From Marsupella aquatica (taxonomy: Eukaryota; Plantae; Marchantiophyta), in NCBI GenBank assembly GCA_973895155.1, contig OZ316895.1, positions 18,671,880 through 18,735,879 of the forward strand: DNA of 64,000 nucleotides, given 5' to 3'. Each line of letters starts with the position of its first letter. The first letter of the stretch is position 1. A model generated the notes under the pieces. The model was not told the origin of the DNA. It worked only from the letters and a program-made list of their open reading frames with translations, and did not search any database. Below are positions 39,800 through 54,542 of this stretch, piece after piece. A program made the position numbers and the translations under genes.

Positions 39800-40263
39800 G
39801 ACGTTTGCTTGATTTAGGTATGGTGCTTTCTGAGACAGCGGAGAGCCTGTATGCGGTAAGCAGATGCTTGCCCCCTGGTAGGGAAAACACCCGTTTGCTC
39901 AGGGCTAAAGATAGGATGGATGGCCTGTGTAGATTATGGCTCAGCTGTGGTGGGGGTTGTATTTTCTCAGGGGATTGACCCCGTCTGCACTTACTAGCTT
40001 CTTGCTTAGGGCCCTCCTCACATTTTCCACACTGGGGGATTTGGGCCATTTTTGGGGCTTTGGGTACTTTGATCTTGCGGTGGCGCACCCCTTGGAGGAA
40101 TCCTTTGCTCTCTCCTGGTCTAGGAGGGACTGGTGTGGCTGGGGGGCTGCTTTCTCTGTCCCCTTGGGTGTGTGTTCGTGTTTGCCATGTGGCTTGTTTT
40201 CCCCGTCCGTGGGGTTTTTTGCGGGCTTAAAAAACATTTATAAAAAATCAATTTCAAGGAAAA

Positions 40264-40615
40264 GGATTAAGAGAAACAAGCGTACTGAAATTGAATCAAA
40301 AATCGGCGGGATGCCAAGATCGGCCGGGAGCATCTAACAAATCATTGTGTGAATCCCGTGTACGGAACCGACGAGCACTATCTAAGCTCTGTCAACATCG
40401 ATTCAAGAAGAACTGAAAACCAATAACGAAAGACATGCCCTAAGTAAACAAAGTCCCGGCGTCACACTAACAAGCGTGTTTGCTTCAAGAATGCCTGGAA
40501 TTTGCTATAAGAACATGTTGCTAACTCAAGTAGTACACTAGCCCTAACTACATACCTAGCGGGCATGCAAGGAACATGCCGATGTGCATAAGAGGCACTG
40601 TCCCTCGGCATGACA
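40264..40615. repeat. Two probable stacked LTR termini (CGGCGTCACA at 40466, GGCATGACA at 40615)
   Basis: CA-ending motifs; the first is the reverse complement of the family C start TGTGACGCCG. CACTA coding sequence begins abruptly at 40616. Confidence 0.4.
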
Positions 40616-41672
40616 TATGTCATCTAGTGGATGAGGTAGCCATTATTGGTCCAATGCATGCGCGGTGGATATATTGGGTAGAGCAATTTATGAAAGTGCT
40701 CAAGTCTTGGGTGCACCAACCCGCTCGACCAAAGGGAAGTATGGCAACAGGGTATATTATGTCGGAGTGCCTATTCTACTCAAGCAAAGTGATAGGGAGT
40801 TTGGACACACAGGCTCCCACAGCTTGGGAAGAGGCACAAGATGATGACAATGGTGGGTTGCGAGTGATGGGCGCGTCAAAGAAGTGATCATTACATGGAG
40901 ACATTTTTGTCGATAGATCCACAGTTATGTGCTGGAAAACCACACCGAGATGTCAAATTGGAGAGAGTTGTATAGGTAGGGACGTAATCCTTCATGTTGA
41001 GTCCTACTAAGATTTAAAAAATTAATGTACATTCAGGGTTGTAGGCACAAATTAAGGTCTTATGTATTTGTGACCCCGTACTTGCAGGGCATGGGTGGAG
41101 CAGCAGCTGATAGGGGCAACACGAGAGCGTGTTCATGCATCATTTTTCATATGGGCATTGGAGCACATGGAGGGGCTCCTTGCAGTGCATGGCCCTACAT
41201 TCATTCCATTGATGTACAAAACATCATTAGGGGGCCTTTGATGTGGGCTATGACTCATACTCACATGTATGAGTCAGGGCACCACTTTCGGACTTGGAGG
41301 ACAGACCATATGAAGAAGAGTACTTGTAACTCTTGAGTATATATGGTGACCAATGTAGGTGATGCTGGCCTTATTGTGGCATTGTCTTGGATATTTTGGA
41401 TGTTAATTTTGGCTCGTTTACCACCACAGTGTTAGAGGTGAGGTGGCACAAGTCCATCATGTCACCTCCAGCAAGAGCTACCATGGTGAAGGATGAGTGT
41501 GGATTTTATCGTGTGGACTGAGTTTAGTGACACTATAGTTTTTCCTAGCCAAGTGGATCAATGCATTATGGTTCCAATGCACACCATGGGAGGATGGTCC
41601 ATTGTGATTCCCATCTTTCCACGTCGTAGGAAGGACTTCATGCCATCAGCTATTGAAGACAATGAGGATTGA
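40616..41672 (+). pseudogene. CACTA/EnSpm transposase (TnpD) C-terminal fragment, DUF4218/DUF4216-like
   Basis: HLVDEVAIIGPMHARWIYWVEQFMKVLKSWV..PKGSMATGY; later GHHFRT, KDECGF, IVFPSQV; probable GT-AG intron at about 40976-41087. Confidence 0.85.
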
Positions 41673-42559
41673 CATGATAGACTCACTATCCACATTTGTA
41701 TTGACTGTTGTCACAGTTTGCATATAAACAGACATATTTCATGGCCTAGGCAACTGTCAATTTGGAGAGTGGGATGGGCTTGTTAATCACGTGGTAAAGA
41801 AACAAGTAACAACCATACGTTTATGCACATGATCCCTCGGCCTTCTACTACAAGGGATACCGGTCATTAACATTGTCCTTCCAATTTTACGTCGCTGAAC
41901 AATTGTGTCTAACATCGTTTATAGCTACGCACATTCAACATAACACTCTGCAACGTCATGTACTGAACCATTAGCCAATGTTATAACTCCTTTGACGTTA
42001 TTCTATACTATGTAACCCAGTCAATGTCGTACTTTAATGATGTATGGCGCGACAAAAGTTGGTTACCACAAGTAGAACGGCATTAATAATTTAGATACGA
42101 TGTTTCAAACAACGTAACAAATTCGCTTTGACATTAATCACAGGAAAAAGATGCAACATTCAAACCACACAATTGTTGCAACAAATAACATTCATGGATG
42201 TGTTTATTGCTGCACATAGACCAAATAGAGATACACAATAGCTCTACCATCCTTTCTACTGCAAATATAGCCTACATGAGTACGTCATGGTCATCCCTCT
42301 ACAACCTCCCTCCAGACTGATGTTGATTAAGGAGTCCCTTCTCCAAACCAGTAGTACTCCTCGTCCGCTTTCCTCTTGTTGTACGAAGCACGCCTTTGGC
42401 TGGCATTCCAATTCTCCGGACAACAACTTCACCGGCCTATAGCCTTTGAGCCTCCACCTTGGCTGCACAACTTTCCTTGTAATCAAACATAGCAATCTGA
42501 AGTTTAGTGGGTGACAACTCACATTTAGACAAGGTGGGAGGGTAGGCCTCACCATCATC

Positions 42560-42880
42560 GTCCTCGGGCAAATCTTCCAGACCACGATCACTGCTCGGAT
42601 GCAACAAGAACTCTCTTGGGTCCAAGTGCTTGTTGGCAATAATGGACCACTCTACCCACCGAGTAGAGATGAAATGCACGGTTTCAGCAAAAAGCCAGAA
42701 TAGTCACTGAAATGCTCCACAACCTGTTTCCACGGATTTGCAATCAAGAAATTGGTCTGTGAGGTACATAGCTTGTCAACAAGCCCTCCATGGCAAAAGA
42801 ACCCTTGAACCATCTTCTCCTCCTCACCAAGTGGGAGAAAACAACAATGCACATTTGCAAAGAACTTCTGCACCATAGTT
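42560..42880 (-). pseudogene. BRCT-like domain remnant
   Basis: FFCHGGLVDKLCTSQTNFLIA, then after a frameshift HFISTRWVEWSIIANKHLDPREFLL, matching the BRCT GG..ThlI..W..dsi..ld..yll pattern. Confidence 0.6.
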
Positions 42881-43319
42881 GAACACTTTGCCTCCCACGG
42901 TTCAACTTCTCTACACTGAGGACCTTGGATGTCTTCACTCGGAAATGCTGGCTATAGGGAGCCTCCCGCCTATAGTTCAGTCTATCCCCAGCTAATCTGT
43001 GGACTTAACATCGTCTCTCCCGATAAACTTAAGAACGTTGTCCTATACTACGTTATTAATTATGTTGTATGGGGCCAGATAAGTTACCATGTCTAGTAAG
43101 ATGTAATATGAGGTACATTGTACAATGCAAGGTTAATTACTATGCATTCAATGACATAGATTTAACGTCATAGAAAGCAATGTTATCTGCTCCCGTTGGA
43201 TCTTCGGATGACATCCGACTACCATCCAAAGATTAACAACATCTAGTCCAACGTTAATCCAAGGAACATAATTTTGGGTTAGATTAAACCTGGTCCCAAC
43301 ATGCAAAAATGTAGTTGTG

Positions 43320-44060
43320 ATATGTCCAACCTGAGGGTAAATACCTGCACGCATTGCGATCCAAATTGTAAATTTATCCACCGATAATGTCTTGATGACT
43401 ACAGGAAACACAAAAGTAGCCCCAGGCGCTAACAAAAAAGAAGTGACAAAATAATATGTACCTGGATATCAGTCTTTGATCTGTACATGGGCACTAACGT
43501 TACAACATTGTGAGAATTGACACAATGGAACTTTTTTAACTGTTGGCATGCTGCAATGACCTACAAAACCCGGTCGTGGTCATCTAAATACAAGATTGCA
43601 AGCATGCCATCATTAGAAAGGAAAGGGTCCATTGCGCAAAAAAATGCACTAGGAACTGTGTGGTCTAGTACATTCCACTTTGGAACCTGACGGTCCATGA
43701 GCATAGGTTTTAGTCCAGTAGGAAGATAAATGAATCCCGCGTTGACTCCAAATGATCTTTCCTTTCCTCCTTTGATGACTCCTTTTTCTCAGGAACCCGA
43801 CTTGATTAAGTCCTTTCTCCACTTCTCAGCATCTGTCACCCACTCTGGTTTCTCTTCTTTGTTGAAAGCACTTTCAATAAATTCTTGTATGCTTGTTTCC
43901 ACCATGCAATGCCTAAGTGAAGATTTACTCTTGAAGTTTCCCACATCTCTCTGGAGACCGGTTCTAGCAGCATTATCCCGGGAAGATTCTCCTACTTGAA
44001 TGGCCCTTTTCTTCTTCTTCTTTGTACTTGTTGCATCTAGAGGACAATCTCTTTTGCTTT
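43320..44060 (-). pseudogene. Second, partial copy of the methyltransferase-like domain (tandem duplication)
   Basis: DATSTKKKKKR..GKERSFGVNAGFIYLPTGL..VPKWN..MDPFLSNDG; same intron position before (M/V)FTLRLDI; similarity is lost after about 43320. Confidence 0.8.
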
Positions 44061-44089
44061 CTCCACGGGAGTGACAAGGTCTGATTGGG

Positions 44090-45181
44090 GGTTTCAATAA
44101 AGTCTTTTCTATGTTCTATCCCGAGTACAAACCGCCCGGAGAAATCTCCTGCAATGAAGGAGCTACCCGCCCCAGCGGTCCAATCCATAAAAGTATCACG
44201 AGGTCGGGTGACAAGCTCGATGATAGATTGCATAAACCCAACAAACAGACAAGCATTTCCAGCAAACTCCATTTGTGGGAATGGATCGGATTTGAGAGAA
44301 GGGAGTCCAATCAAATTGGTGATCAAGGGGTCTTCACTGATGAAGAGTGGACGGAATTTAGGGTCTTTGGGACTTTTACATTTTCCATTAATTTGACCAA
44401 ATATGTCCAACCTAAGGGTAAACATCTGCGGAAAACAATCCAAAGTGTCAGTTGGCAACTCTAGGTTACACGATAGATAACTCAAAACAGGAAAGAGTAA
44501 AGAATAGATAATTACCTGACGGTCTATCTTTGCCGCATACATGGGGACAGACATTACAACATTATGCGTGCATATACATTGGAATCTTCTCGACTCCTGA
44601 CAGGCAACAATGACTTGAGACATGGGATCGTACTCCCCATTGTGTAGAATTGCAAGGAACCCATCATCTGATAAAAATGGATCCATGGATTTGAAAAAAG
44701 TTCTAGCCATGGAGTGATCTGGAATGTTCCATTTAGGAACCTTCTTATCAAGGATTGTTGGTTTGAACCCAGTTGAAAGGTAAATGAAGCCCACATCCAC
44801 TCCAAACGATCTTTCTTTTCCACCCCTCACAACACCCTTCTCTTTTTTTCCCGACTTAACGAGATCCTTCCCCCACTTCTCCACATTACTAACCCATTCA
44901 GGTTTTTCCTCCTTGTTGAAAGTTGAGTCAAAGAATTCAAATAGCCTTGACTCAACCATACAATGCCAAGACATTGTACTCTTGAAGTTTCCAACTTCAC
45001 GTTGGAGACCAGTTTCTGCAACACTCTCCCTTGAAGAAGGTCCACCTTCGATAACTCTCTTTTGTTTCTTCCTGGTACTTGTGGCGTCGACTGGAACTAT
45101 TACCTTCCCTTTGTCGATAGGAGTAATGGGGTCCGATCGAGCTCCCGTGTTTGCTTCAAAAACTTCAGATGTAGCATCCAC
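44090..45181 (-). pseudogene. Beta-class N4C/N6A DNA methyltransferase-like domain
   Basis: C-terminal SAM-binding block FMQSIIELVTRPRDTFMDWTAGAGSSFIAGDFSGRFVLGIE; N-terminal block FIYLSTGF..VPKWN..FLSDDGFLAILH; 90-nt in-frame GT-AG intron at 44515-44426. Confidence 0.72.
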
Positions 45182-45395
45182 TTTAGTATCTCCTATTCCC
45201 GCAGTATTAGACTTCCTCCCTCCTAAATCAATAGTACAAGGTCATACTTGGAAGATGTAATTCCTGAGTATTGAAACACAGTAGCGCTAGGCGCTAACCA
45301 AATAAAAATCACTAAGTGCACTAGAATCGCACCAGAATCAAGAAAGAAATCTTAATTTGCAAGATAGTTTTAGCCAGCGCCAAGCGCTGGCCAAA

Positions 45396-47629
45396 TTATG
45401 GAAACAAATACTCACTTTTCCTCCCAGATTTAGTTGACTCGCTTGGTGCTGCTAACTTTGCTTTTGCTTTCGCTCGAGGTTTGCGACTGCGGTCTACATG
45501 AACAGTAGTTGTTTCACAGATACTTTGCAAGTCTGTGGCAGACTTGTCCACATTGTCTAGCAGGCCCTGCTTCATGTCGAACACAATTTTTGCTGGAATG
45601 TGGGACTTTGAAAGCTTATGGAATGCATCCTTCTCCCTTTGATCAAAAGGCGAATCCCATCTATCTGTATGTAGATGTACCATGGGCAGTGAGTTCTCTC
45701 CCATTCTTTCATAGGTCTCGGAGGAAATATGCCCTCCGATGGGTACATGGAATACAAATCAGCTATGGCATCATCCTCATTTATTGTAATCCACTTCATG
45801 AAAGCTGCAGGATATGCCCAGAAGTAATCACGTTTGGTTACCTCCATGTGCATGTAGAACCTATACAGATACCTTTTAGCCCGCTTCTGGTTTTTCTAGG
45901 TGTAGTCTTCTTTGTCTAGATACTTTGAAAGCCACATAGTGTGAAAGAACTTACTCTTCACAGAATCACCATATCTCTTGAACTCATTTGTAACAAAATG
46001 AACGAGATCATCAAACAAACCACAATTCCACTCTTCTAATCGAGTTGCGGGCATGGTTTGCTCTACTTCACGCAGACACAAATGTAACATGCCGACAACA
46101 ATTCCCTCCACACTATTCCAAGTGATCCAAGTGTGACACCATTGTTTCACTAGGTTGTCATTAACACTTGCTGGGTGGAAAAATTGCCTCCGAAGCTCAG
46201 GATTGCAATGTGCCACAAGTAGGGTGCTCCATAACTTTGGGTCTAGTGCAAAAACCGCAGTGAACAATCGGGCGTGGTCCATTGTACATACGACGGTGTC
46301 GGGCTTCTTCTCTCTCTTGTTTCTCTCTATGACAACATACATTTATGCACATGTACTAAGGAAATCTTCAAATTCAGGACTTAACAAGGGCGTAATTTTG
46401 GAAGACTTCACAACCGAGTCTTTGGTTGCGTCCTTCATCATTATTGCATGCCATTTGGAAATCTTGTCCACCGACCAGGGGCTCCCTTGAGCCTTGGCTG
46501 CATCCATGTCAAGCTTGAATTGGTGCGAATAGGACTTTATCTTATTCTCACATAGAATGTAAACAAGAGCTTCTTGTGGCATCTTCTTCGTATACCATGA
46601 TCCCTTCCGAGTCTTCAGCCAAATGCTCTCAAACTTCTTGAAATTAGCTGGGTCAATCAGTTTACTGTAATACTCAAGGTCATGCGCCAAAATTCTTTTG
46701 ATTCTATCTGCATCTAGGATCCAGGAGGGCTCAACAACGGCTTGGCCAAGCCTACAAGAATAAACGCAGTTAGTTAGAGTCAAAGTACAATTGATCTATA
46801 ACCAGCGCCGGGCGCTCTTAAATCAAACACTCCTAAGATTCAAGGAAGGAACCGAAAAGTTACGAGAACTTATTGATTGACGGTGTGCATAGCTACCTCA
46901 ATTTCAATAAGAGATCCCTTGTCTCCCTTAAAAATTGCGCAGAGCACATGAGGATGGTATTTTGGATTGTCGAGGTTCTCCTTGGTAACAAGCGTCCATG
47001 AGTACAGATTGTGATTTCCATCAAAGACAGAGAACATCTTATCCTTCAACACGAGAAAATTTGGGTCGGCCTCACATTCAACCTCAAACTTCTCATTCTC
47101 CAATTGCCAGATTGGATCCCATGTATCACAAACTCCTGGGTACAGGCCAGAAGAATTTTGTTCTCGTCCGTTGGTTGCACATAGAAATGCATTCCTATGG
47201 ATGAATTGTAAGTAACCCATACTACAAAACGAGTCTTTGAGCTTCTCAATGGAAGAGTTGTCTTTCTGCAAAGTACAAACCACCTCCATGTGAACCAATC
47301 AACATAGAGGGATTCGAGGCGGCTCCTTGTCAAATCCACGAGAATCCTTCCCAAAAGATATGACACGCTTGGAGATGAGATCAGTCTCCGCGAGCGCGCA
47401 ATCTGCAACATCTTGGATCGCAAATGTGTCAAGGTTCTCCATCTTTCTGCGCAAAGGTTTTTGGAACCAAAACACCGCTAACAGAAGTAGGAGGCAACAA
47501 CTTTGTGGAACGAGTTACACGACGTGTATAAATTGAACCAGTAAACAAAGACTGCAAGGATTCAAAATAAGCTTGCTCCTGATCAAGAACTGCACTATAC
47601 CCTTTGGCCGAAGAGGGGAATACCTCCAT
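45396..47629 (-). pseudogene. ParB/Sulfiredoxin-like N-terminal domain and helical middle region of the same spliced gene
   Basis: RIPLC.LVHMEVV.TL..IEKLKDSF..GY..FYV..WDPIWQLENEKFE..KMFSVFDGNHNLYSW (DGxHR-type motif, R replaced by N); probable introns near 46870-46757 and 45400-45265. Confidence 0.68.
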
Positions 47630-48594
47630 CGTCTTCCTTCCAAAAATGTACAAACTATCGTACAATGAAATTATGAAACTCTAATCCTTCTTGAACGTGT
47701 ATTATATTCTAGAAGGAGGGGGTAGTTCAGCAAAACTTTTCGATTAAAGCGGCAATCTTGTACGTTTGGCGGATTCCAACGTATGTAAATGGAGGACTCA
47801 ATTATCTAAATCAAGCAGAAGTTCTAATACACACGGAACTCAGAAGTTACCGTTAAATATTACCGTTACAACCCTTCTCCACACTCATTGGGAATACTAG
47901 CATTGGGCGCTATTATAAACATAGAACCTTCAGAGAGATAAATGGAAGGATAGTCATGACAACGCTCGGGACTAGTAATAATAATGGCAATAAAATAGGT
48001 CTGAAATCGTGCCTACAGTACATAATTATCGTCTTAAGAACCCATATTTTAGGAAATTTCTGTTGTTTTAATTGTTTTTTGAAAACATATCTTCCACTCT
48101 ATACTAGCGCCCGGCGCTAGTAAAAACATGCATTGTTCATCCCTAATTCTGGCAGGTTTCCCATTTTTAGAGAGCGTTATAAGGCAATTACCTCATACTA
48201 TTTCTGGTTTTCAAGTATATCTGGAGAGTGAATTCTATACTAGCGCCTGGCGCTAGTATGGTATATCAAGATTTGGGACACATTATTTTTTTCGTATTTA
48301 GTTGGCGCCTGGCGCTACTCAAATTGTTCCGAATATGGAATATTTTAGGGTCAATTAGAGCTTTTTGTGGTGTCCTTTTTGAGAGTATATTTGGGTCTGA
48401 CATCCGGACTTATTGGGGAAAAATGACAAAATTCATTTATGGCGCCAACAAATCCTATGTCGTCTACGTTTCTTGTCTTATCCAAACGGCTCTGTTAACG
48501 TAAAGTTAACAGGTGCGATTGATATAAGCTCCACATTCCCACAGACTTTTCTTCCTCAAAACATTACAGCCCCCATTATTTGTTTTTGATTGTA

Positions 48595-50462
48595 ATGTCT
48601 CGATCGATCGTTCTATCTCGATTTGGAACTAGGGATATTGTCACCATCCCCGTCCCTTTGGCAGACACGTACAAGCAGGTCCGAGAGAGATACCTCTACG
48701 GGAGATTTGATTTGAACATGAATCCATTGTTCGAGAGGTTGAATCCAATGATGACATCAAAGATGCTGCAATGTTCAATGTTGATGATGGTGAACGGTTT
48801 TGGCATCTTAACGCAAGGATTTCATACTCACTTTGGGTTAGACAACATGAAGGACTGTCAAGTGTCCCTCAAGTTCCATTTGATGTTGTCAAGATTTCTT
48901 CTAGTGAAGATGGAGATCACACTCCAAGTCCTTTGTTGAAGATGAAAGTCCCGCAACATGTTGTCATTAAAGGTGAGACTTCGGGAAGCTCTAACCAGTT
49001 GGAGGTCGTGTATCGGCAAAGTGCAATGGACACATGCTCAAATCCACTGGTCATGCATAGCAAGTTATCAAGGTTCACATCAGTGGGGGTACACAACATC
49101 ATCAGTTATCTCAAAAATTTCAGAATCTCAGTTGAGGAGTTAAGATGGGGCCTTCGAACTTCCGCGCATCTCAGCTGGGCAGTCGAGGTTGACTCAATCT
49201 CGGCTGACCTCGCCGAGATGGGCGTACGGACTGAAAAAAAAATTTAAAAATTCCCCCCCCAAAAAAAATTTGAATTTTTTTCCCCATCTAAGCTGGCCTT
49301 GCCGAGATGGGGCGTACGGACCGAAAAAAAGGGGGAAAAAAACCAAAAATTTGAAGAAATTTTTTTTTGAAAAAAAAGTTCAAATTTGTTTTTCCCATCT
49401 CGGCTGGGCTCGCCGAGATATTGTCCGTATGGTACGGATGCCTCATATAAAAAAAGTTTTCCTTCAAATTTTGAAAAAAAATTCAAGTTTTTTTTTTCTT
49501 CATTTTTTTCTTTTTAGCATCGCAACTTGGCGGCCTCCTTGAGATGAGGTGACAACTGATATCAGGTACACTGATGAAAGTGACTGATAACTGATGAGAT
49601 TACTTATCTCATATCAGTGGGTGATTTCAGACATGAGCAAGTATCTTGTCTGCCAAACAAGTACAACGGGAACGTTGTGTTTGAATTGCCACCAATCGAC
49701 AAGATGCTCTCTAAAGGATCTAGGCTTAGGGACATGGACCATGCCAAAGATTGCTACATTTGGACTCGCATATTTCCAACCACCGCAAACGTCCATTCAA
49801 AAAAACATTGGCAATTCGATAAGGTTACCTGTATGGGATTTATTGAATGTCGGAACAAGTCCTGCAAGTACTTCCAAGGAAGAAGAAGGCAAATGCTAAA
49901 GCATGGCATGGTACTCCAAAGCCTAGTGGTTGGGATCTTTTATCAAAGAGGGAGGTGTTGTACATGTCATTATTGTCAAAAAATTCCTTTTTGTGTCAAG
50001 TACTGCCCTGCTCGCTTGTTTTATATGTACCTGCAAGTATTACTTGATGCAGAAACATGTAGTCATATGTCTTGTCTGGCAATTCATATAGGTGAGCATA
50101 ACCATCCAAGTAGAAAAACCTTCTCTAGGAGTGTAGAGAAGATGGCTGAGGATTTAATTTAAAAAAATCATGAAGCCAATCCTTTGGCAAAACCAATAGG
50201 GATCTTGAATTCTGCTATAGGGTCGATAGTGAAAGCTCTGTGCAAACATGTTGACGACATGGTCGATATTGAAGAAACTGAAATATGGAAGTCTCTGATG
50301 GGACTTTCCACTCCCCAAAAGTTTGCATTGCTTTGTTGAAGCGTTAGGATAGACCAAAAGGGTTGGGGTGAGTTAGATTTTCTCTCGCAAATGCAAAAGA
50401 GGATTAACCTATCGTTTCTCCAAAGGTATTTTCTCCCAGGTCAGGGTTGTCAAGACGATAGG
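48595..50462 (+). pseudogene. Putative DNA transposase, N-terminal part, with GCM/WRKY-like zinc domain (Mutator-like inferred); cut by the family B insertion
   Basis: EQVSCLPNKYNGNVVFELPP..MDHAKDCYIW..CMGFIECRNKSC..CHYC..CPAR..AIHIGEHNHP. No DDE core is present in the window. Confidence 0.6.
49145..49550. repeat. Small insertion built of CATCTCGGC-n-GCCGAGATG hairpin units and A/T tracts (non-autonomous element remnant)
   Basis: Units at about 49168, 49198, 49284, 49396 and 49518, two followed by GGCGTACGGAC-poly(A); interrupts the coding region; boundaries approximate. Confidence 0.6.
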
Positions 50463-53400
50463 TGTGATGCGTCCCATGGCTCCCTAAACCCAAGAAACCC
50501 CCTTGCACAAGTTGATTCCCATAGGTTTCGTTCTGGGCGAGGCCGGTTCCACGGCTTATCGGCATGGGATGCTGCTAACTCTCTTCTATTAACATTTTAC
50601 ACACATATACTGGACAGATCCTTCATCGGGTCATGAGATAAGTAGCCGGCCTATTCTATGCCTTCGCTTCTCTTCCTCTCCTAGTCTTCCTTTAGGTATG
50701 TTTGGATTCCGCCGCCGGAATGATCCCCGATTGGCTTGGGTTAGCCACTAAGACCTCTCTCAGCTCGACACATCCAACTCGTACTACCTGACTTACTTCC
50801 CTTCTCTCTTGGTTGATGTGGGCAATCTTCAAACAAGTTAATGCGACACACAAATAGCAAATTGACTCCTTCTGACTGAGTTATACCATGCACTTGCCAT
50901 ACAAAGAATACTTCTCATACACAAGATCTGCGAACTAAGTCGTGAGGCCAACTCTATTCATCTCTTAGGCATGAGGAAACATGAATATACACAAGCCAGG
51001 GTCACTATATAACTAACCAAGAGCTTCTTTTACTACTTGATCCCAGCCCTGCTAGTGCACTAAAAACTTGCTAAAGAAGAAGGCCCTGAACTCCCCGCTG
51101 CCCAGGTACTTATCCTGGCAATGGATCCGCCTAATTCCTTGCAACGTAAGCCTAATCTATCCTAACTATAATCTACCTATGTACAACGAGGTAGGAGCAC
51201 AAGTGTTGCTCTTACCAGTGGATCCGCAATCCCACTTATCTAAGTGTCAGGGCCGCCTCTTGGTCTTGATCATAATTTCTAAACTTAGAGATTTGCGCTT
51301 GCCTTGCCCACTCATGCCTCCTCCCTCCATGTCCGCCCTCCTTAAAAGGAGCGGCCCTCCACCACGGTCATGGTAGCGGTGGCTGATCCTCAATGGACGC
51401 TCCCAACACTTCCTCCGCAGCCATTGCCGTAGATCCGTCCTCTGACAGATTACCTGCCCCAGATCCAGTCAACTCTCCAGCGGCCTGACTGGATCCACCC
51501 TCGGCTTTGGCCTCAGCTTTGGCTACGCCCTCAGATATGGCTACGGCCTCAGATACGGCTAGGCCTCAGATACGGCTACGGCCTCCCTGGCCTGCTCTAG
51601 TGGTGGATCCAATACCCCGACTTCATCAATGATTGTCCCGGACTCTACCTTGCCATCCCCGCCTTCTAGGATAGTTGAATCCTTTGCCGTGACCCTGCCT
51701 GAGGCTGGTGCCGTGTTCTCCCCCTTGATCACGGTGGCTTGAGAAGCCGCGTTGCTCCCTGACCCAGAAGGTTTCCGCTTCTTCTTCTTCCTTGGTTCAG
51801 CAACTGGTCCCTTCCCCTTGCCACTTACCTCTGGCACCGATGCGAGTGTTGCGGCTTGTCCCTCGGCCAGTATTACCCCTAGCAACTTGGTTGCCACAAT
51901 TGGAGTTTGAACTGATGAAGCCAAGTACTTAAATACTACGGCTTGTTTCTTCAGCCACTCTGTTGGGTTGCCGGCCCGCCATTATAAGTTCTCCATCTTC
52001 CTCGTGCTTTCCTCAAACTCCTCCTGCATTTTGTCTAGTTCCTTGCGCGCCTCCACCAGCTCCTTCTGGGCTTCCTCCAATTCCTTTCTTAAGGCAACCC
52101 TCTCTTCTTGGGTTGCTCTTAGCTCCTTGTCGAGCTCTGTTACGACCTCAGACTCCATCTGGTTCATCTTGGCATAAGTCTGATCGAGTTGGTCATCCTT
52201 CTCACGCAGGTCGGCCTTGAAGCTGGCCGTCAGGAATGCAAGCTCCTATTGCAGCACAATAATCCCTTGATAGGATCTCCCTAACTCAGCCTCCTTCTGT
52301 TCAAGGGCTCCGCGGAGATCCTCGAGCTCCCCCTTCAGCGCCCTCTCCTTCCTCTGTGTCTCCGCCATGGCCCAATTGTTGGTTGCTATGTGGACCTCCT
52401 CTGTGTCCTTCAGCTCCCGCTCCCACTTCTCCTTTTCCTTGATCGCGTCGGCCAACTCCCCTTGGGTCCAAGTCAATTTATCCTTGATAATCTAACTATC
52501 AAACTGAGCGGTATCTAGTTGCCCCTGCATGATGTTTAGCTCATGCCGCTTAATCCGCAGCTCATCTTGGGCTTTCTTGGCCGCCTTCAGGTCTTTTGCC
52601 TTGGCTTCCTTCTCCTTAAGCCGTTGGATGAGCTCGTCCTTCTTCCTCCTCTCCAAAGCCACCGCTTCCTCCAATCAATGTTTTTCCAACATCTCCCTCT
52701 GGAAAAAGGGTCCCTCCTCCAACTCCTCCCCAAAGATATTGAGCGCAAGTTCCCCACACATCTCCCCGTACTCCATAGCTCTTTCTTGCGCATAGGTGAG
52801 TGAGTAGTAGTCATCGGCATTACCCACCGCGGCCTTTGTTCCCAAGCCACCTTTTGGATCTCTTCTATCGTGATTGGTAGGCTGCTTTGTCCTTCGGCAA
52901 GCCGCCGGATGTCCTTTGGCCATTCTCCCCTAGGTAAATCCTTCTCCTTGGCCAAGGCTGCCTCCTCTTCTTCCCTGAGTCGCTCCTGAAACTCCTGTGC
53001 CGTCTATTTTATCCCGTCAAATCTTGGGGGAGCGACATCTGGTGGGGGAGACTTGGGGCTGCTCTGCTGGGTGGGGTCCCCTCAAACTACTCTAGGAAGC
53101 ATGGGGATGAAACGGCCACAGGTCCTTACTCCTGGGACATGATGGTCCGACCCGTAGCCGGAGTCGTCATTGCCGTAGTCCTCCACCACCTCCTCCCCGG
53201 CTTGGATTATCGGCTCCCCCCGTTGCTCTCCTAGTCTTGCTGTGAACATGGCCTCCTACCAAACACAGCTCATGGGTCCTGGTTCCTCCTCCGGCTTCCA
53301 GGCTGATCTCTCCTTCTCCCTATTGCGACCAGGAGCTTTGGGCTGCTCTCCCTCGGCTTCTGGACTTGCGGCTCCCACATACATTCGAACCCCTGGCTTG

Positions 53401-54341: not shown

Positions 54342-54542
54342 TCGTGGATCCTAGACGCAGATAGAATCCAAAGGATTCTCTCTCATGATCTAGAGTATTG
54401 TAAGTCAATAATTGACAGTGCCAATTATGCAAAGTTTGAGTATATCAAACAGAAGACTCGAAAACATTCTTGGTACACACGGAAAATGCCTCTGGAAGCT
54501 CTTGTTTATATTTTGTGCGAAAACAAAATCAAAGCTTACACT
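54342..54542 (+). pseudogene. Fragment of a paralog of the ParB-MTase gene
   Basis: Translates SWILDADRIQRILSHDLEY..KTRKHSWYTRKMPLEALVYILCENKIKAY, versus SWILDADRIKRILAHDLEY..KTRKGSWYTKKMPQEALVYILCENKIKSY at about 46530-46730. Confidence 0.88.

What the first reader, a model, noticed from the sequence alone, without database searches (positions are those of the whole stretch)
42560..47629. Transposon-embedded spliced gene: ParB-like domain plus N4/N6 DNA-methyltransferase-like domains and possibly BRCT
Seen: a DGNH-type ParB/Srx motif in the first exon; a C-terminal D.TAGAGS..GR..LGIE SAM-binding block in the permuted order of prokaryotic beta-class amino-methyltransferases; a second partial MTase repeat; a BRCT-like segment downstream on the same strand. 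Established: ParB-MTase fusions are common in phages and bacteria, and eukaryotic 4mC methyltransferases of bacterial origin are known from bdelloid rotifers (N4CMT) and Marchantia (DN4MT1). Inference: an intron-containing accessory gene of a DNA transposon that marks or binds its own DNA. Whether BRCT belongs to the same transcript is uncertain.
Basis: partly seen in the sequence, partly recalled or inferred. Interest (0 to 1): 0.88.

Follow-up and report, generated by a model that had tools for sequence, protein, structure and literature searches.

The report
Dead transposon ParB-pseudomethylase gene with palindromes
This is a broken copy of a many-copy, intron-containing plant gene whose protein joins a ParB-like region to a bacterial-type DNA methyltransferase fold lacking the usual catalytic motif, and it likely served a DNA transposon by binding short palindromes in its own introns and promoter, much like genes recently reported in seaweed transposons.

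Summary
The gene is real but dead. Four exons (47629-44090, minus strand, about 1045 codons) encode a ParB-like region, a linker and a beta-class amino-methyltransferase fold (AlphaFold pLDDT 85.5; best Foldseek hits M1.HpyAVI and CcrM). It carries stops, frameshifts and a mutated splice donor, and more than a thousand divergent contigs per run align to it, so it is a repeat family. The catalytic [DNSH]PP[YFW] motif is absent in 35 of 35 family members that cover it (mostly x-L-P-T), while the SAM-binding motif is kept, and two copies show purifying selection (pN/pS 0.30). It is therefore not a DN4MT1/N4CMT-type enzyme. A palindrome, AGCGCC-N-GGCGCT, occurs 7 times in 64 kb, all in this gene's introns and upstream spacer. 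The gene lies head-to-head with a GCM/MULE-type zinc-finger gene, probably the transposase. The second methyltransferase repeat is a fragment of a sister copy. BRCT was not confirmed and probably belongs to the neighbouring CACTA relic. The kind is published for algal transposons (Ectocarpus Sola1-1; red algal Plavaka). This land-plant variant has a rebuilt active site.

The parts
46874..47629 (-). Exon 1: N-terminal part and ParB/Srx-like region (DGNHN at 47022-47008). Frameshift between 47492 and 47466, stop at 47301-47299, short out-of-frame stretch near 47213-47130.
   Evidence: tblastn of the intact sister ORF P0073; ESM feature hits DUF3723 0.95 and a ParB_N-bearing cluster 0.92
46752..46873 (-). 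Intron 1 (phase 2); donor reads AT instead of GT; holds a perfect palindrome at 46804
   Evidence: P0073 ends at the same point
45416..46751 (-). Exon 2: about 445 codons of unassigned linker; stops at 46345-46343 and 45898-45896, frameshift near 45676
   Evidence: the 2 extra bases at 45676 are absent from contigs carrying 616.5 of 908.3 depth in X1 and 838.6 of 3103.8 in X2; no Pfam family
45223..45415 (-). Intron 2 (GT-AG, phase 1); palindromes at 45283 and 45376
44516..45222 (-). Exon 3: first half of the methyltransferase-like domain; motif IV position reads YLST at 44782-44771 (YLPT in other copies)
44426..44515 (-). Intron 3 (GT-AG, 90 nt, in frame); spliced Calypogeia models lack this stretch
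44090..44425 (-). Exon 4, cut at 44090: SAM-binding motif DWTAGAG (44185-44165) and GIE strand
   Evidence: PF01555 E 0.03; loose ends of other copies at 44090
43321..44089 (-). Fragment of a sister copy: exon 3 part with YLPT and two stops, intron 43461-43345 with a palindrome at 43418, and the first 8 codons of exon 4
   Evidence: no further methyltransferase match downstream
47630..48600 (.). Spacer between the two divergent genes; palindromes at 48106, 48242 and 48304, plus a decayed one at 47899; CpG o/e 0.88 with motifs masked
48600..50462 (+). Broken gene with a GCM/FAR1/MuDR-type zinc finger, likely the start of a MULE-type transposase; cut by an LTR element at 50463; start approximate
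   Evidence: ESM feature hits 0.90-0.78, low recognition score; no Pfam family; LTR junction
42440..42951 (-). BRCT-like frameshifted segment, unconfirmed; probably not part of the gene
   Evidence: no hit; no palindromes in 41600-43400
40616..41672 (+). 3' relic of a CACTA/EnSpm transposase, tail-to-tail with the BRCT-like segment
   Evidence: DUF4218 E 2.6e-16; other copies run on differently before 40616
54342..54539 (+). Third, short fragment of the same gene family (exon 2), 76% identical in protein

Best explanation
This is a dead copy of a multicopy spliced plant gene with a ParB-like region and a beta-class methyltransferase fold lacking the catalytic motif, and it likely served a DNA transposon as a self-binding regulator rather than as a canonical DNA methylase. 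Shown: the exon structure, the fold, the family-wide loss of [DNSH]PP[YFW], purifying selection, many divergent copies, and palindromes confined to introns and spacer. Inferred: in intact elements the protein (about 1100 aa) is transcribed away from a MULE-type transposase out of a shared spacer. It would bind AGCGCC-N-GGCGCT as a dimer in the way ParB binds parS, and would load on or coat the element. The methyltransferase-like domain would still bind SAM but act as a scaffold or reader. The likely benefit is to keep the spacer open against host CG/CHG methylation, as VANC does for VANDAL elements.
For: Fold and permuted order. Motif IV: 0 of 35 rows canonical; L-P at positions 2-3 in most rows (L 30, P 33 of 35); one row has DPPT. 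Motif I kept: D 37, G 36 and G 34 of 46 rows; E 31 of 40 rows in the next strand, counts that include some misaligned rows. pN/pS 0.30 (0.24-0.38) over 203 codons between the two methyltransferase copies, with synonymous sites saturated; both copies are non-canonical. 1447 and 2523 contigs laid in X1 and X2, of which only 173 and 279 are 99% alike or more. Palindrome: 7 matches against 1.34 expected, 0 of 100 shuffles reach 7. All 7 are non-coding, and one lies in the sister copy's intron despite saturated divergence. The spacer keeps CpG (0.88 against 0.36-0.66 in 7 nearby segments). Precedents: Ectocarpus Sola1-1, red algal Plavaka ParB gene beside inverted-repeat arrays, VANC motifs in introns.
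Against: No binding, expression or activity data exist. The ParB assignment rests on a motif and ESM features; Pfam is negative and the fold failed. No HTH was identified. The motif was chosen after seeing it here, so the shuffle test overstates its significance; at 3 mismatches the excess is weak (23 against 16.3; 4 of 100 shuffles reach it). Intron 3 of the main copy has no palindrome. The neighbour's DDE core is missing, its ESM recognition score is low (1450), and no listed contig spans both genes. No full-length protein was found in three searches of longer proteins. A promoter could keep CpG without any protective protein.
Confidence: 0.55

Rival explanations
1. The domain is still an enzyme with a rebuilt active site. 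It methylates DNA (4mC or 6mA, possibly in or near the palindrome), RNA or a protein by altered chemistry, and so marks the element.
For: The SAM-binding motif is conserved, and the replacement motif x-L-P-T-G is itself conserved rather than randomised. Iyer et al. note eukaryotic clades with unusual strand-4 motifs. The Riccia member keeps DPPT.
Against: Both the polar first residue and the aromatic last residue, which the published mechanism needs, are missing in 34 of 35 rows or reduced to S/R/T-type first residues without the aromatic. Inactive transposon-borne methyltransferase domains are known in DIRS1 elements.
Confidence: 0.22
2. The carrier is the CACTA/EnSpm element on the left, and the BRCT-like segment belongs to the same gene or cassette, as with the red algal Plavaka accessory genes.
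For: A DUF4218 transposase relic lies 1.6 kb from the sister-copy fragment. BRCT-like and methyltransferase pieces share a strand. Plavaka (EnSpm) elements carry PF01555 and ParB genes.
Against: No palindrome lies left of 43418. The sister fragment stops 8 codons into exon 4, with no methyltransferase remnant before the BRCT-like piece. Relatives end in an acidic tail shortly after the domain. A 419-base contig identical to 43111-43529 has low depth (28.2), which suggests a junction private to this locus.
Confidence: 0.13
3. The gene is passive cargo, or a piece of a domesticated host gene that was amplified by transposons, and the palindromes are transposase-binding or incidental repeats.
For: Every stretch seen in this window is broken. 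The palindromes could equally bind the neighbour's zinc finger.
Against: Purifying selection between two repeat-borne subfamilies, 71 clusters at under 50% identity to each other, and the same architecture on algal transposons.
Confidence: 0.1

Closest known systems
ParB-like + N4C/N6A methyltransferase accessory protein of Ectocarpus Sola1-1_Ec32 (PMC12477816; passages and a supplement search read)
   Same: One predicted protein with both domains, 1104 aa against about 1045 plus a lost tail here; opposite strand to the transposase; proposed to bind its own element.
   Different: Land plant rather than brown alga. The partner is a likely MULE-type, not Sola1, transposase. The catalytic motif is shown here to be rebuilt; the passages read do not state the algal motif. 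Direct homology was not tested.
Plavaka (EnSpm) accessory genes PAG2 and PAG3 of Bostrychia (bioRxiv 10.1101/2025.02.11.637652; passages read)
   Same: PF01555 domain and ParB-like domain carried by DNA transposons; inverted repeats next to the ParB gene; the genes move between transposon families.
   Different: There the domains lie on two genes (methylase+SET; ParB+2OG oxygenase). Here they are in one gene, and the palindromes are dispersed in introns and spacer.
Beta-class amino-methyltransferases (PF01555): M1.HpyAVI, CcrM, M.PvuII, M.MboIIA
   Same: Fold, permuted motif order and SAM-binding motif.
   Different: No [DNSH]PP[YFW]; 12-16% identity; fused and spliced.
Marchantia MpDN4MT1 and rotifer N4CMT (bioRxiv 10.1101/2021.02.12.428880; PMC10406627; passages read)
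   Same: Eukaryotic beta-class fold of prokaryotic type; N4CMT structure 8s9o matched at E 3.5e-8.
   Different: Those are active host enzymes with TSPPY/SPPY. This family lacks the motif, is a decaying repeat, and matches N4CMT no better than bacterial enzymes.
VANC anti-silencing proteins of Arabidopsis VANDAL elements (PMC5735166; passages read)
   Same: Functional analogy only: an accessory gene whose binding motifs lie in introns and intergenic parts of its own element.
   Different: No homology shown or claimed. VANC21 binds a non-palindromic 9-mer in tandem arrays.

Membership tests
Beta-class N4C/N6A DNA methyltransferase (PF01555) | Permuted Rossmann fold, motif IV before motif I | tested here: met
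Beta-class N4C/N6A DNA methyltransferase (PF01555) | SAM-binding D-x-x-x-G-x-G and acidic residue on the next strand | tested here: met
   DWTAGAG and GIE in the window; D 37, G 36, G 34 of 46 rows; E 31 of 40 rows
Beta-class N4C/N6A DNA methyltransferase (PF01555) | Catalytic [DNSH]PP[YFW] | tested here: not met
   0 of 35 rows that cover the site, of 72 aligned; window YLST, other copies YLPT
Beta-class N4C/N6A DNA methyltransferase (PF01555) | Pfam gathering score 26.7 | tested here: not met
   window 14.7 bits; 1 of 11 homologs scanned passes (P0021, 28.8 bits)
Beta-class N4C/N6A DNA methyltransferase (PF01555) | Methyl transfer to DNA | not testable with these tools
   needs an assay or long-read kinetics
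MpDN4MT1 / N4CMT | (T)SPPY motif in an intact host gene | tested here: not met
   multicopy and broken
ParB/Srx N-terminal domain | G-x-x-R arginine patch (motif recalled, not from a call) | tested here: met
   DGNHR in sister ORF P0073; DGNHN in this copy
ParB/Srx N-terminal domain | Profile or fold match | tested here: inconclusive
   no Pfam or PDB sequence hit; ESM features 0.95 to DUF3723 clusters and 0.92 to a cluster with PF02195 on 11% of members; model pLDDT 31.7
ParB/Srx N-terminal domain | HTH and binding to a palindromic site | not testable with these tools
   candidate palindrome found; binding not tested
Algal transposon ParB-methyltransferase accessory genes | Both domains in one protein of about 1100 aa | tested here: met
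   in-phase splice chain, 3135 nt to the break; inferred from DNA, no transcript seen
Algal transposon ParB-methyltransferase accessory genes | Inside a DNA transposon (transposase on the opposite strand, TIRs, TSD) | tested here: inconclusive
   multicopy; zinc-finger gene head-to-head; no DDE core, TIR or TSD in the window
Algal transposon ParB-methyltransferase accessory genes | Sequence homology to the Sola1-1_Ec32 or PAG proteins | not tested
   no protein sequence of these was obtained
BRCT domain | Profile match | tested here: inconclusive
   no hit for either half; the frameshift splits the domain

The most novel reading that the evidence does not exclude
Land-plant DNA transposons carry a ParB/parS-like self-recognition system. 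A ParB-pseudomethyltransferase binds palindromes seeded in its own introns and shared promoter, spreads along the element and shields it from host cytosine methylation. Its rebuilt x-L-P-T pocket reads modified bases or does new SAM chemistry. This would be a second, independently evolved anti-silencing system beside VANC.
Probability: 0.25. Interest if true: 0.8.

Novelty: new variant of a known kind. Interest (0 to 1): 0.45.

Why it matters
[quoted passage not shown] This locus adds two testable points for land plants. It gives a concrete candidate target site (AGCGCC-N-GGCGCT), and it shows that the domain was kept under selection without its catalytic motif, which argues against the simple 'self-methylation' reading. 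It also warns against annotating these liverwort proteins as 4mC writers. The copy itself is dead, and other windows of this scan already noted the family.

Tried and rejected
No whole genome is held, so intact copies, TIRs and TSDs could not be sought. No RNA holder was listed, which says nothing about expression. Searches of longer proteins found no full-length fusion: 0 hits, 0 hits, 1 exon-sized ORF; this is weak evidence. No related loci in metagenome contigs or viral contigs. Phage tblastn with P0060 gave only weak DNA methylase hits (E about 0.02-0.04). The single-sequence fold of P0073 failed and was not searched. VIA-align jobs never ran. The first dN/dS run used a wrong frame and was redone. 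A search for recalled MULE core motifs found no continuation of the zinc-finger gene. The tree groups the two window copies with P0001 (100/99); its root and the place of P0060 rest on long branches and were not used. Rejected: a DN4MT1 orthologue; a tandem two-methyltransferase protein; contig depth as a copy number (the tool disallows it). Paper searches that listed no land-plant ParB-methyltransferase transposon gene; subscription papers are not covered. bioRxiv supplements were not seen, and those of the Bostrychia preprint may hold motif data for PAG2 and PAG3.
Full report
Setting. The window is almost wholly transposon DNA: Gypsy-type, LINE and Copia-type frames (labels from my own knowledge of the motifs) around a lower-GC block at 40-50 kb. 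No genome is held. Of 30 homologous proteins looked up, 6 carry a species name: 5 Calypogeia fissa and 1 Riccia sorocarpa. The host is therefore inferred to be a land plant, probably a liverwort; this was not determined.

Gene structure. The minus strand carries four exons: 47629-46874, 46751-45416, 45222-44516 and 44425-44090, 3135 nt in all. Introns 2 and 3 are GT-AG. Intron 1 has an AT donor, and the intact sister ORF P0073 ends at exactly that point. Spliced Calypogeia models lack the 30 residues that intron 3 adds in frame. The copy is dead: exon 1 has a stop where P0073 has Arg and at least one net frameshift; exon 2 has two stops and a 2-base insertion that some other copies lack; exon 4 is cut at 44090, where contigs of other copies run on with different sequence (3 contigs in X1, 3 in X4).

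The second repeat. The stretch 44089-43321 is 68% identical in DNA to exon 3 and 60% in protein. It has its own intron at the same place and ends 8 codons into exon 4; profile searches found no further remnant. It is a fragment of a sister subfamily, not a second domain. A third fragment lies at 54342-54539.

Methyltransferase domain. Pfam PF01555 is weak in the window (E 0.03). A phmmer search of 1.84 billion representatives gave 71 proteins at E up to 0.001. A profile of 56 of these sequences hits M1.HpyAVI (E 3.7e-6) and CcrM (8.3e-4), and the Riccia member aligns to PF01555 positions 2-212 of 221. The model from a 72-row alignment has pLDDT 85.5 and pTM 0.84. Its best structural matches are beta-class enzymes: M1.HpyAVI E 3.5e-11, CcrM 2.3e-10, N4CMT 3.5e-8, M.PvuII 7e-8.

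Catalytic motif. Alignment to a phage methylase puts DPPF against DPPT (Riccia), ALPT, FLPN, YLPT and the window's YLST; in the model this follows strand 75-81. Of 72 rows, 35 cover the site and none has [DNSH]PP[YFW]. First position: A 11, Y 9, F 7, C 3, S 2; then L 30, P 33, T 25. Contigs carrying 895.9 of 895.9 depth in X1 and 1893.6 of 1943.2 in X2 have the base that gives Pro. The published mechanism needs the polar first and aromatic last residues (PMC4738411, passages). The SAM-binding motif is kept. Between the two window copies pS is 0.79 (saturated) and pN 0.24, pN/pS 0.30 (bootstrap 0.24-0.38, 203 codons); the exon 2 fragment gives 0.21 over 66 codons. The non-canonical site is thus an old, maintained state and not decay of this copy.

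ParB-like region. ESM features match unnamed eukaryotic clusters and DUF3723 clusters at 0.95, and a cluster with ParB_N on 11% of members at 0.92. P0073 has DGNHR. Pfam, PDB sequence search and folding did not confirm it. I treat it as likely.

Copy number and neighbours. Over 40560-50320, 1447 contigs of X1 and 2523 of X2 were laid, and only 173 and 279 are 99% alike or more, so this is a divergent repeat family. No listed contig spans the stretch. To the right, head-to-head across about 1 kb, lies a broken gene whose zinc finger resembles GCM, FAR1 and MuDR domains (scores 0.90-0.78, low recognition, a lead only); an LTR element cuts it at 50463. To the left lie the BRCT-like piece and a CACTA transposase relic (DUF4218, E 2.6e-16). 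BRCT got no support. I favour the right-hand gene as the partner because the palindromes extend into the shared spacer and stop at 43418 on the left. This is inference.

Palindromes. AGCGCC-N-GGCGCT occurs 7 times at up to 2 mismatches in 64 kb (1.34 expected; 0 of 100 shuffles reach 7), at 43418, 45283, 45376, 46804, 48106, 48242 and 48304. All 7 are non-coding, where non-coding DNA is 28% of the span (p about 1.5e-4). In an unbiased scan of 113 palindromes it was one of the top cores, tied at 3 copies with others. The motif was chosen post hoc, and at 3 mismatches the excess is weak. Intron 3 of the main copy lacks it. The spacer keeps CpG at o/e 0.88 with motifs masked, against 0.36-0.66 in seven nearby segments, which is weak support.

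Mechanism. Shown: the architecture, fold, motif loss, selection, many copies and palindrome placement. Inferred: the transposon context, binding of the palindrome, SAM binding without canonical catalysis, and an anti-silencing role by analogy to VANC21, whose motifs lie in introns and intergenic parts of VANDAL21 (PMC5735166, passages). I put this at 0.55, an active enzyme with altered chemistry at 0.22, a CACTA/BRCT cassette at 0.13 and passive cargo at 0.10.

Comparison with what is known. Ectocarpus Sola1-1_Ec32 carries a 1104-aa ParB-like plus N4C/N6A methyltransferase gene opposite its transposase, proposed to bind and modify its own element (PMC12477816, passages; supplement rows). Bostrychia Plavaka elements carry a PF01555+SET gene and a ParB+2OG gene beside inverted-repeat arrays (bioRxiv 10.1101/2025.02.11.637652, passages). 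Iyer et al. describe ParB-HTH methylase fusions in chlorophytes and chytrids and inactive DIRS1 methyltransferase domains (PMC4738411, section 9). MpDN4MT1 has TSPPY (passages) and N4CMT has SPPY (passages). It works like the algal accessory genes; membership was not tested by homology. It is not a member of the active beta-class enzymes. Six paper searches listed no land-plant example. Earlier notes of this scan report the same family in other genomes; they are unchecked and are not independent support.

Verdict. A real but dead copy of a land-plant variant of a recently described kind of transposon accessory gene. The rebuilt active site and the candidate binding palindrome are the useful additions. 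Interest 0.45.

Noticed in passing
window 26021-20551 (-): A Gypsy-type retroelement with a C5 cytosine methyltransferase-like domain right after its aspartic protease (LELFGG; PF00145 E 0.045; protease E 3.9e-5), split by an insertion. Resembles the DNMT-bearing retrotransposons of PMC5890265 (search listing and start of abstract only).
   Followed up: partly
window 49091-49623: About 530 bases inside the zinc-finger gene, flanked by a roughly 15-base imperfect direct repeat and holding a second palindrome family (ATCTCGGC-N7-GCCGAGAT, 3 copies). Some contigs skip it (joint 49054-49609).
   Followed up: partly
window 54342-54539 (+): Isolated fragment of exon 2 of the same gene family next to the truncated LTR element.
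   Followed up: yes
window 40260-40615: A high-depth repeat that replaces the 5' part of the CACTA transposase (loose ends before 40616); not identified.
   Followed up: no
window 46873-47298 (-): The ParB-like exon's nearest named ESM clusters are fungal DUF3723 proteins. I recall DUF3723 as a common cargo of Starship elements; not checked.
   Followed up: no
P0060 (Riccia sorocarpa KAL3696265.1): The only homolog with a near-canonical DPPT motif, on a long branch; a candidate intermediate between active enzymes and this family.
   Followed up: partly
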